From assembly GCA_003243955.1 (NCBI GenBank), contig QHCE01000057.1:1991-65990 (forward strand): a DNA stretch of 64,000 nt, read 5' to 3'. This DNA comes from Acidimicrobiales bacterium. Its GTDB lineage: Bacteria; Actinomycetota; Actinomycetes; Mycobacteriales; QHCE01. Below the pieces are notes generated by a model that was not told where the DNA came from, ran no database searches, and was given only the letters and a program-made list of their open reading frames with translations. This document shows, in pieces, positions 28,332 through 28,507 of this stretch (its first letter is position 1; each line of letters opens with the position of its first letter). The position numbers were made by a program, and so were the translations under genes.

Positions 28332-28391
28332 GACATTTTCCTGGACTGTCGCGAAAAACCGCTAAACAGTGAGGTTTTCCCTGAAAACGCC
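28332..28391. repeat. double-palindrome element, degenerate copy D (P450 upstream region)
   Basis: GACATTTTCCTGGACTGTC, then 20 nt, then GAGGTTTTCCCTGAAAACGCC. Same arm-20 nt-arm geometry. Coordinates cross-checked with the GTG at 28369. Confidence 0.75.
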
Positions 28392-28446
28392 GTATGCAGA
28401 AGCTGACATCGTGGCCAAGGTGACGCAGGGCTTAGGCAACCGTGCC

Positions 28447-28507
28447 GGCGTTTCAGGGAAAACGTCGGCACATAGGGTTGTTGGGGGACGATTCCAGGGA
28501 AAACGTC
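28447..28507. repeat. double-palindrome element, copy C (P450 upstream region)
   Basis: GGCGTTTCAGGGAAAACGTC, then 20 nt, then GACGATTCCAGGGAAAACGTC. Coordinates cross-checked by codon index in ORF 28369. Confidence 0.9.

What the first reader, a model, noticed from the sequence alone, without database searches (positions are those of the whole stretch)
28332..28507. Two more copies of the element sit in the divergent P450 / monooxygenase control region and are open in the P450 frame
28332-28391 (GACATTTTCCTGGACTGTC, 20 nt, GAGGTTTTCCCTGAAAACGCC; degenerate) and 28447-28507 (GGCGTTTCAGGGAAAACGTC, 20 nt, GACGATTCCAGGGAAAACGTC) keep the same arm-20 nt-arm geometry as the carB copies. Judged from spacer similarity, they are inverted relative to each other and 55 bp apart. 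They occupy much of the 328-bp gap between the monooxygenase-like gene (start 28205, minus strand) and the first ATG of the P450 (28534). The longest P450 ORF (GTG 28369) reads through them without a stop (RFSLKTP..GVSGKTS..RFQGKRP). So either the P450 has an element-derived N-terminal extension, or four hairpin-forming arms sit in its promoter/5' UTR and in the promoter of the divergent operon. Finding the family both inside an ORF and in a regulatory gap supports mobility over a carB-specific feature.
Basis: seen in the sequence. Interest (0 to 1): 0.6.

Follow-up and report, generated by a model that had tools for sequence, protein, structure and literature searches.

The report
Decayed palindromic repeat copies upstream of P450
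The gap between a cytochrome P450 gene and a divergent monooxygenase gene holds two worn-out, untranslated copies of a small palindromic repeat that elsewhere in this uncultured actinomycete lineage sits in frame inside essential genes such as carB; the two copies are ordinary relics, and the repeat family is the more interesting part.

Summary
28332-28391 and 28447-28507 are degenerate copies of a 62-nt element: a 21-nt palindrome GACGTTTTC-NNN-GAAAACGTC, a 20-nt spacer, then a second palindrome. A profile built only from copies in other genomes finds both at full length (E 1e-8 and 3e-4).

The P450 N-terminal-extension reading is rejected.
- The listed 120 best P450 homologs (of 698) cover only 82-90% of the 442-aa ORF, in line with a 387-aa protein.
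- The family N-terminus M[LI]FRxW[ED] begins at ATG 28534, behind a GGGAGA ribosome-binding site.
- The upstream 165 nt have no codon-position GC pattern.
- The arm has no stop codon in any frame, so "open in frame" says little.

The copies are therefore non-coding, in the P450 upstream or leader region. Four relatives' P450 upstream regions lack them. As single strands they have largely lost their own hairpins.

The mobility inference is supported. The element occurs at unrelated loci in related "Mycobacteriales" MAGs: in frame in nuoM and hemL, and between genes elsewhere. One carB site is filled here but empty in a 97%-identical ortholog.

It behaves like REP dimers and Rickettsia RPEs. No such family turned up for Actinobacteria in two full-text searches. 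The mobilising enzyme and any regulatory effect are unknown.

The parts
28332..28391 (-). Copy C: degenerate 60-nt copy of the palindromic dimer element. Arm 28332-28350 has a 2-nt deletion and mismatches; spacer 28351-28370; arm 28371-28391 has 2 mismatches. Orientation from the spacer is tentative.
   Evidence: nhmmer with the non-window profile gives E=3.2e-4 over model 1-62 on the minus strand and 2.4e-3 on the plus strand. Its own hairpins are largely lost (z -0.75).
28447..28507 (+). Copy D: degenerate 61-nt copy. Arm 28447-28466 has a 1-nt deletion; spacer 28467-28486; arm 28487-28507 has 2 mismatches.
   Evidence: nhmmer gives E=1.1e-8. ssDNA fold z -1.74.
28392..28446 (.). Unique 55-bp segment between copies C and D. 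It is not part of the repeat family.
   Evidence: blastn of the whole intergenic region against all fetched loci matches only the arms.
28332..28507 (+). Composite 176-nt span. If transcribed it can fold as one nested hairpin: arm C1 with D2, and C2 with D1.
   Evidence: RNA fold of 28320-28540: -83.8 kcal/mol, z -3.27, 1 of 200 shuffles as good. Any two arms are complementary because each is a palindrome, so this does not show selection.
28526..28536 (+). Ribosome-binding site GGGAGA (28526-28531) and the true P450 start codon ATG 28534.
   Evidence: homolog coverage, the gene call of 387 aa, and a conserved GGAG..ATG context and MxFRxW N-terminus.
28534..29697 (+). Cytochrome P450 gene (387 aa), convergent with and overlapping bioD. 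Synteny with bioD-bioF-bioA is kept in relatives.
26661..28196 (-). Divergent flavin monooxygenase-like gene (511 aa from ATG 28196; the ORF's first ATG is 28205).
28232..28254 (.). AT-richer stretch holding the only TANNNT -10-like boxes outside the elements: + TAGAAT 28248-28253; - TATTCT 28254-28249, TAGTGT 28249-28244, TAGCTT 28237-28232. Candidate divergent core promoters, by inference only.
   Evidence: The strict sigma-70 scan found none. 28206-28331 is 49% GC.
17595..17656 (-). Intact family copy A, in frame in carB (site 2), read as [21 protein letters not shown].
18213..18274 (-). Intact family copy B, in frame in carB (site 1), read as [21 protein letters not shown]. This site is empty in the 97%-identical ortholog P0122.

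Best explanation
Copies C and D are two old, decaying, non-coding copies of a small non-autonomous palindromic repeat. The unit is a dimer of two 21-nt palindromes held 20 nt apart, 62 nt in all, with a net 63-nt insert where it sits in a gene. The family belongs to a clade of uncultured actinomycetes that NCBI labels Mycobacteriales.

The copies landed in the lineage-specific DNA between the bio-linked P450 and the monooxygenase operon. The P450 is translated from ATG 28534, so the copies are not part of the protein. They lie upstream of its ribosome-binding site, either in a long 5' leader or between promoter and gene.

Shown:
- family membership of both copies;
- their non-coding status;
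- their absence from four relatives' P450 upstream regions;
- presence/absence differences of the family between close relatives;
- dispersal of the family among unrelated housekeeping loci.

Inferred:
- The element spreads, or spread, as a single-stranded hairpin substrate of a transposase encoded elsewhere, by analogy with REP/RAYT and CGTC-type REPs.
- Intragenic copies survive only where, and in the frame in which, the 21 encoded residues are tolerated.
- C and D are now selectively neutral. At most they have an incidental effect on P450 mRNA structure through the 176-nt hairpin they can form together.
For: Family membership: profile E-values of 1e-8 and 3e-4 with conserved arm-20 nt-arm geometry.

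Non-coding status.

Lineage specificity:
- No element lies upstream of the P450 in L005-7 (74% identical P450), L045, L046-47 or L048-49 (71%).
- The upstream neighbour gene differs in each.

Decay:
- Both copies carry deletions and mismatches in their arms.
- Their own ssDNA hairpin stability is at shuffle level.
- Across 30 arms, changes mostly break pairs, with no covariation: 88.1% of cells paired against 87.7% in shuffles, reached by 171 of 500 shuffles.

Dispersal:
- Multiple exact arms with 41-nt start-to-start spacing occur only in Mycobacteriales MAGs LS6_sbin.2 and bin.58; JTS-RE384 adds one solo arm (L025). The other hits are singletons in unrelated phyla. About 17 chance hits are expected, by my estimate from the collection size.
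- In-frame copies sit in nuoM (L022) and at the hemL N-terminus (L038).
- Intergenic copies sit between aceE and a PHP gene, adnA and adnB, DUF3000 and its neighbour, a prepilin peptidase gene and aroC, and moaA and a ThiF-family gene, which are divergent.

Mobility:
- L044 and L022 share the element including its spacer (83% over 54 nt) but not their flanks.
- carB site 1 is filled here and empty in P0122 (97% identical). It is filled by a degenerate copy in L051 (83% identical; E=6.5e-10) and empty in four further orthologs.
- carB site 2 is filled here and in P0122 only.

Other:
- The flanking genes scanned at five of these loci include no transposase.
- There are no matches in phage, plasmid or viral collections.
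Against: - No mobilising enzyme was found. Only 64 kb of this genome could be read, so copy number and any transposase link are unknown.
- No target-site duplication is visible at carB site 2 when compared with the empty site in L050. That comparison is across 84-88% protein identity.
- Spacers are much less conserved than arms. This also fits protein-binding sites with fixed phasing.
- The two copies can pair with each other (z -3.3) and lie next to a promoter region, so a regulatory role is not excluded.
- At carB site 1 the window copy has perfect arms while the copy at the same place in L051 is decayed. This needs re-insertion, gene conversion or selection, and none of these was tested.
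Confidence: 0.75

Rival explanations
1. Co-opted regulatory structure. The two copies were mobile in origin but now act on expression. They could form a 176-nt hairpin in a long P450 5' leader that affects stability, termination or translation. Alternatively they could act as a cruciform or protein-bound barrier between the two divergent promoters.
For: - The composite folds better than shuffles (-83.8 kcal/mol, z -3.27).
- The only good -10-like box upstream of both copies (TAGAAT 28248-28253) would put them in a leader of about 270 nt.
- A related copy also sits in a divergent intergenic region, between moaA and a ThiF-family gene in L016.
- Effects of REPs and MITEs on mRNA fate are documented for other families (PMC3733652).
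Against: - The arms are decaying without compensatory change.
- Four relatives' P450 upstream regions lack the copies.
- Mutual pairing follows automatically because every arm is a palindrome.
- No terminator-like site and no Rfam family match the region.
- The ribosome-binding site is not sequestered by the element pairing in the minimum-energy fold.
Confidence: 0.15
2. Operator sites. The 9-3-9 palindromes are binding sites of a dimeric transcription factor. Pairs 41 bp apart would allow cooperative binding, and C and D would be the operators of the P450 and monooxygenase promoters.
For: - The consensus is a perfect palindrome with rigid 41-bp spacing.
- Arms are far better conserved than the spacer.
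- The copies sit in a divergent control region.
Against: - The best copies are 63-nt in-frame insertions inside carB, nuoM and hemL coding sequence, absent from orthologs.
- Host loci share no functional theme.
- The copies at the supposed control region are the most degenerate ones.
- No regulator gene is adjacent.
- Orthologous P450 upstream regions lack the motif.
- The motif differs from the actinobacterial biotin regulator BioQ site TGAAC-N3-GTTCA (from memory, not tested).
Confidence: 0.05
3. N-terminal extension. The P450 starts at GTG 28369 and carries 55 extra, partly element-encoded residues.
For: The frame is open from 28369. Intragenic, translated copies of this family do exist elsewhere.
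Against: - The listed homologs cover 82-90% of the long ORF, and the family N-terminus MLFRxWE aligns to residue 1 at ATG 28534.
- A GGGAGA ribosome-binding site lies 2 nt upstream of the ATG (sequence).
- GC by codon position is flat in the extension.
- The frame used would be TFS/RFxGKR. All five clearly intragenic copies use DVFxENV..TFSxKTS instead.
- The arm has no stops in any frame, so openness is expected.
Confidence: 0.03
4. Chance resemblance: C and D are not family members at all.
For: Arm C1 is poor (19 nt, several mismatches), and copy C alone reaches only E=3e-4.
Against: Zero matches are expected by chance for the arm at up to 3 mismatches. Full-length profile alignments keep the 20-nt spacer in both copies. 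Four arms fall within 176 bp.
Confidence: 0.02

Closest known systems
Rickettsia palindromic elements (RPE), in particular the short RPE-4 and RPE-6 that Di Nocera et al. 2013 (PMC3733652) equate with CGTC-4 and CGTC-1 REPs
   Same: - Short palindromic repeats found both between genes and in frame inside conserved housekeeping genes, which stay open.
- The insert adds about 20-30 residues, apparently in tolerated linkers or loops.
- Presence or absence differs between close relatives.
- No linked transposase is known.
   Different: - Host phylum: Actinomycetota, not an obligate intracellular alphaproteobacterium.
- The sequence is unrelated.
- The unit is a strict dimer of two near-perfect 9-3-9 palindromes with a fixed 20-nt spacer.
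- Density looks modest: 4 copies in 64 kb here, and six loci with exact-arm hits in one related MAG.
CGTC-tagged REPs and their head-to-head dimers (Di Nocera, De Gregorio, Rocco 2013, PMC3733652)
   Same: - 9-bp stem.
- CGTC at the 3' end of at least 90% of arms.
- A/T pairs next to the tag.
- Dimers are the main form.
- Intragenic dimers encode 20-30 aa.
- No associated transposase gene.
   Different: - Here CGTC is paired with a mirror GACG at the 5' end, not an unpaired tag at one end.
- The loop is 3 nt, not 4-5.
- No 3-nt CCA-like tail was identified.
- That survey lists five phyla for CGTC repeats and never mentions Actinobacteria.
REPINs (REP doublets) mobilised by RAYT transposases (Bertels and Rainey; as summarised in PMC3733652)
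   Same: - Two short palindromes a fixed short distance apart form the mobile unit.
- Arms are conserved more than the spacer.
- Intergenic copies often lie just after gene 3' ends (L035, L040, L021).
   Different: - No GTAG tetranucleotide.
- No RAYT gene found; only partial genomes could be inspected.
- Frequent in-frame intragenic copies are not typical of REPINs.
Bacterial MITEs that insert in frame (for example cyanobacterial Nezha; reviews PMC3184786 and PMC10969869)
   Same: Non-autonomous, inverted-repeat-bounded, able to extend ORFs without breaking them.
   Different: At 62 nt it is shorter than the usual 70-300 bp. No target-site duplication was seen. No parent insertion sequence with matching ends is known.

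Membership tests
This window's 62-nt palindromic dimer family (carB copies A and B as reference) | Arm matching GACGTTTTC-NNN-GAAAACGTC | tested here: met
   C2 and D2 have 2 mismatches each. D1 has a 1-nt deletion, and C1 a 2-nt deletion plus mismatches.
This window's 62-nt palindromic dimer family (carB copies A and B as reference) | Two arms separated by a 20-nt spacer | tested here: met
   The spacer is 20 nt in both C and D. The profile aligns over model positions 1-62 for C and 6-62 for D, at E=3.2e-4 and 1.1e-8, using a model built without window copies.
CGTC-tagged REP superfamily (PMC3733652) | CGTC tetranucleotide as an unpaired tag at one end of the stem-loop | tested here: inconclusive
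   CGTC ends at least 90% of arms. It is base-paired to a 5' GACG and so is present, mirrored, at both ends.
CGTC-tagged REP superfamily (PMC3733652) | Stem of 8-9 bp | tested here: met
   The stem is 9 bp, or 10 bp in the CCCGG variants.
CGTC-tagged REP superfamily (PMC3733652) | Loop of 4-5 nt and a 3-nt tail | tested here: not met
   The loop is 3 nt, or 1 nt in copy A. No conserved tail lies beyond the palindrome.
CGTC-tagged REP superfamily (PMC3733652) | Mostly organised as head-to-head dimers | tested here: inconclusive
   Dimers with 41-nt start-to-start spacing predominate: 11 of about 14 occurrences. Head and tail cannot be assigned because each arm is a symmetric palindrome.
CGTC-tagged REP superfamily (PMC3733652) | Tens to thousands of copies per genome | not testable with these tools
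   Only 64 kb of this genome is available. The exact-arm scan gave six loci in MAG LS6_sbin.2, two in bin.58 and one in JTS-RE384.
REPIN/RAYT system | GTAG tetranucleotide at the REP end | tested here: not met
   No GTAG appears in the arm consensus.
REPIN/RAYT system | Cognate RAYT (IS200/IS605-type Y1 transposase) gene flanked by the REPs | not tested
   The ten flanking genes scanned are all housekeeping.
MITE | Target-site duplication flanking terminal inverted repeats | tested here: inconclusive
   No duplication is seen at carB site 2 when the filled site is compared with the empty one in L050. The flanks have diverged (84-88% protein identity).
MITE | Length of 70-300 bp and a related full-length insertion sequence | tested here: not met
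   The element is 62 nt. No insertion sequence with these ends occurs in the window or loci, and there are no plasmid, phage or viral matches.
Rickettsia palindromic elements | Sequence similarity to RPE-1 to RPE-10 consensus sequences | not tested
The exact-arm scan of species-representative genomes returned no Rickettsiales hit.
Rickettsia palindromic elements | In-frame residence in conserved genes that stay intact | tested here: met
   Twice in carB here, once in carB of L051, in nuoM (L022) and in hemL (L038); all ORFs stay open.
Transcription-factor operator | Conserved at orthologous promoters | tested here: not met
   Absent upstream of the P450 in four relatives.
Transcription-factor operator | Enriched upstream of a coherent regulon | tested here: not met
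   Host loci are functionally unrelated, and many copies lie inside or after genes.
CRISPR mini-array | Repeat-spacer-repeat next to cas genes or a leader, in non-coding DNA | tested here: not met
   The repeat is 21 nt and the spacer 20 nt. Copies are translated in frame inside carB, nuoM and hemL. The scanned neighbours include no cas genes.

The most novel reading that the evidence does not exclude
The 62-nt dimer could be the first described REP/RPE-like family of Actinomycetota that lives inside essential genes and is still active. A carB site is filled here but empty in a 97%-identical ortholog. All five translated copies use the same one of three possible frames (DVFxENV-x7-TFSxKTS). 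That would imply frame-specific insertion or very strong filtering for one benign peptide. Copies C and D would then record the non-coding side of the same invasion, possibly reused as a leader hairpin for a bio-linked P450.
Probability: 0.4. Interest if true: 0.6.

Novelty: new member of a known kind. Interest (0 to 1): 0.4.

Why it matters
For annotation, the result fixes the P450 start at 28534 and warns against the 442-aa ORF. It also explains the roughly 21-residue insertions in CarB, NuoM and HemL of this clade as repeat-derived rather than as assembly errors or new domains.

For biology, in-frame palindromic repeats are best known from Rickettsia and from scattered REP families in other phyla. 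A free-living actinomycete lineage with insertion differences between near-identical genomes would be a second system for two open questions. One is how such elements move. The other is why proteins tolerate them, since CGTC-type REPs still have no known transposase.

The two intergenic copies add little on their own. They show that the family is not specific to carB.

Tried and rejected
- Protein search with the element-encoded peptide. A doubled 42-column alignment gave 479 word-sharing candidates but none at E <= 10.
- DNA of the closest relatives. Contigs encoding P0122 (97% CarB) and P0002 (84% P450) are not on record. The most informative comparison of the P450 upstream region could not be made.
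- Metagenome scan for the inner 54-nt pattern: one hit only, L044.
- Viral contigs, phages and plasmids: nothing.
- Rfam at gathering and at permissive thresholds: only four tRNAs elsewhere and one meaningless weak hit. No PyrR-site or riboswitch explanation emerged.
- Strict sigma-70 and terminator scan of the gap: nothing.
- Covariation in the arms: none beyond shuffles.
- Island-boundary idea. I asked whether the monooxygenase, lyase and antiporter block was inserted between pyrR and the P450, with the elements at its edge. The phosphoribosyltransferase next to the P450 in L046-49 is not a PyrR ortholog, so this was dropped.
- Arm-like match at 9608-9630. It is the conserved MetK GAFSGKD motif with no partner arm, so chance.
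- Possible degenerate solo arm after the P450 stop (29715-29734), suggested by the bioD alignment with L005. It is not significant at the DNA level: 24% of background windows score as well.
- CRISPR mini-array and integron attC readings were considered and rejected on anatomy.

Full report
**What is there.** The gap between the minus-strand flavin monooxygenase-like gene and the plus-strand cytochrome P450 contains four arm-like sequences arranged as two units.
- Copy C: GACATTTTCCTGGACTGTC (28332-28350), 20 nt, GAGGTTTTCCCTGAAAACGCC (28371-28391).
- Copy D: GGCGTTTCAGGGAAAACGTC (28447-28466), 20 nt, GACGATTCCAGGGAAAACGTC (28487-28507).
- The reference copies lie in carB at 17595-17656 and 18213-18274. 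Each has two perfect 21-nt palindromes GACGTTTTC-NNN-GAAAACGTC separated by 20 nt.

**Is it more than chance?** Yes.
- The consensus arm with up to 3 mismatches gives 10 matches in the window against 0.00 expected in shuffles. Arms C2 and D2 are among them.
- An nhmmer profile built only from copies in other genomes recovers D at E=1.1e-8 and C at E=3.2e-4. C aligns over the whole model and D over positions 6-62.
- The rest of the gap, including the 55 bp between C and D, matches nothing else that I fetched.
- The claim that C and D are mutually inverted rests on spacer similarity and is weak: 294 of 2000 shuffles do as well.

**Where the window comes from.** The P450 protein is identical to one on contig DAITIK010000001.1 of MAG GCA_036837295.1, and the gap is identical in three further assemblies. 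NCBI labels the MAG Acidimicrobiales. The best P450 and CarB hits are instead Mycobacteriales MAGs and Micromonosporaceae.

**The P450 does not start in the elements.**
- The listed 120 best homologs (of 698) cover 82-90% of the 442-aa ORF, mostly 86-88%, and are mostly 385-410 aa long.
- Most of the top 30 begin with M[LI]FRxW[ED] at residue 1. That corresponds to ATG 28534, MLFRMWEK.
- GGGAGA lies just upstream of that ATG. The GGAG..ATG context is conserved in L005 and L045, and similarity ends there.
- The 165 nt from 28369 to 28533 have GC by codon position of 0.60/0.56/0.58. The gene body has 0.70/0.49/0.65.
- The three frames of the arm read DVFxENV, TFSxKTS and RFxGKR. No stop arises unless the middle triplet starts with T, and none seen here does. 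An open frame through the copies is therefore expected and carries little weight.

**What the family is.** A scan of one genome per species for the exact arm gave 36 loci.
- Most hits are singletons in unrelated phyla. By my estimate from the collection size, about 17 chance hits are expected.
- Mycobacteriales MAGs stand out: six loci in LS6_sbin.2, two in bin.58 and one in JTS-RE384.
- In LS6_sbin.2 and bin.58 the arm usually has a partner exactly 41 nt away; the JTS-RE384 hit is a solo arm.
- In-frame copies sit in nuoM (L022) and at the N-terminus of hemL (L038).
- Intergenic copies lie after or between housekeeping genes:
  - aceE and a PHP-domain gene;
  - adnA and adnB;
  - a DUF3000 gene and its neighbour;
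  - a prepilin peptidase gene and aroC;
  - the divergent moaA and ThiF-family genes.
- None of the ten flanking genes scanned is a transposase.
- L044, from a metagenome, and L022 share the element including its spacer (83% over 54 nt). Their flanks are unrelated.
- Nothing similar occurs in phage, plasmid or viral collections.

**Evidence of gain and loss.** The E. coli CarB structure sequence shows the second carB copy as an insertion inside the conserved ...CVHAxxAL-[insert]-YETVMVNCNPE... segment. An alignment of close orthologs gives the following pattern.

| carB site | Window | P0122 (97% identical) | L051, JTS-RE384 (83%) | Other orthologs |
|---|---|---|---|---|
| Site 1 | filled | empty | filled by a degenerate copy (E=6.5e-10) | empty in four |
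| Site 2 | filled | filled, with a 6-residue duplication | no element; an unrelated shorter insert | no element |

- The net insert is 63 nt.
- No target duplication is visible, but the empty-site comparison is across diverged sequence.
- All five clearly translated copies use the same frame, DVFxENV-x7-TFSxKTS.

**State of copies C and D.** They are the most degenerate members of the family found here.
- As single-stranded DNA the carB copies fold far better than shuffles (z -4.3 and -5.1). C and D do not (z -0.75 and -1.74).
- Across 30 arms, substitutions mostly break pairs, and there is no covariation beyond shuffles.
- Because every arm is a palindrome, any two arms are complementary. C and D together can therefore form a 176-nt nested hairpin if transcribed (-83.8 kcal/mol, z -3.27). 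This does not show selection.
- None of four relatives has the element upstream of its P450, and the upstream neighbour gene differs in each. The whole gap is specific to this lineage.

**Position relative to promoters (inference only).**
- The strict sigma-70 scan found nothing.
- A loose TANNNT scan finds boxes facing the monooxygenase only at 28232-28254. That is at least 78 bp from the nearest arm.
- Two boxes face the P450. TAGAAT 28248-28253 would put both copies in a leader of about 270 nt. TAGGGT 28473-28478 lies inside D's spacer.
- No Rfam family or terminator-like site lies in the gap.

**Comparison with what is known.** The behaviour matches small palindromic repeats of the REP and RPE kind.
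- Di Nocera et al. 2013 (PMC3733652) describe CGTC-tagged REPs with 8-9-bp stems, mostly as dimers.
- In that survey, intragenic dimers encode 20-30 residues and no dedicated transposase is known. The Rickettsia elements RPE-4 and RPE-6 belong to these families.
- The survey lists five phyla for CGTC repeats and never mentions Actinobacteria.
- The present arms end in CGTC and have 9-bp stems. However, the CGTC is paired with a mirror GACG, the loop is 3 nt, and no tail is evident.
- I therefore describe the element as working like these families, without filing it as a member.
- Two full-text searches found no description of such a family in Actinobacteria. That shows only that none turned up in that library.

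**Verdict.**
- The N-terminal-extension alternative is rejected.
- The location in the upstream or leader region stands, with no evidence of function.
- The inference of mobility is supported by independent data.
- The finding itself is two ordinary relic copies. The family behind it is a moderately interesting new member of a known kind.

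Noticed in passing
whole window; The source MAG GCA_036837295.1 is labelled Acidimicrobiales at NCBI. Its P450 and CarB are closest to Mycobacteriales MAGs, Micromonosporaceae and Cryptosporangium, so the label looks doubtful.
   Followed up: partly
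window 28534-33142; L005, L045, L049: The P450 stays next to bioD-bioF-bioA (and bioB in L005) in relatives at 71-74% identity. This suggests a BioI-like role in making the pimelate moiety for biotin. No NCBIfam equivalog matched.
   Followed up: partly
window 23912-28196: A three-gene block lies between pyrR and the P450: a flavin monooxygenase, a tyrosine phenol-lyase-like enzyme (678.7 bits against a cut-off of 720.7) and a CPA2 antiporter. Its GC is lower (55-59%), and it is next to the P450 in none of the relatives. It may be a recent acquisition.
   Followed up: partly
carB, nuoM and hemL copies: window 17595-17656 and 18213-18274; L051 11253-11313; L022 472-533; L038 2751-2812: All five translated copies are read in the same one of three possible frames (DVFxENV-x7-TFSxKTS). 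If frames were random, four further copies would match the first with probability about 1 in 81. This has not been checked genome-wide.
   Followed up: partly
L005 2149-2169 (also L006 and L007): In the 74% relative a perfect solo arm starts at the base after the P450 stop codon. It is read as DVFRENV in the C-terminal part of the convergent bioD. The same site is empty in L049. The equivalent window stretch (29715-29734) is not significantly arm-like.
   Followed up: yes
P0122 CarB, alignment A4 columns about 660-680: The site-2 element in the 97% ortholog carries a 6-residue duplication (SGKTSGSGKTS). This looks like slippage within the second arm.
   Followed up: no
window 18213-18274 versus L051 11253-11313: At the same carB site, the window copy has perfect arms while the copy in an 83%-identical ortholog is decayed, and a 97% ortholog has no copy at all. 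Simple vertical inheritance does not explain all three. Re-insertion at a hot spot, gene conversion or precise excision would be needed.
   Followed up: partly
alignment A5 of 30 arms: The 3' half GAAAACGTC is at least 90% conserved at every position, while positions 1, 2, 4 and 5 of the 5' half are only about 70% conserved. Outer half-arms of dimers decay more than the inner halves facing the spacer. My search patterns may contribute to this.
   Followed up: no
window 9608-9630: An arm-like GGATCTTTCCCGGAAAACGCC lies in a minus-strand gene and encodes the conserved MetK motif GAFSGKD. It has no partner arm and is a chance look-alike. It shows that the element's TFSGKTS peptide resembles a natural motif.
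   Followed up: yes
window 28196-28205: The monooxygenase probably starts at ATG 28196 (AGGA 9 nt upstream; the gene caller's 511 aa) rather than at the ORF's first ATG 28205.
   Followed up: yes
L051 9245-9825: In JTS-RE384 two small ORFs (69 aa, and 126 aa with a faint HTH_23 hit) sit between carA and carB. They may be an insertion-sequence remnant and are absent from the window.
   Followed up: no
window 35226-35808: A cluster of four tRNA genes, one on the minus strand and three on the plus strand.
   Followed up: no
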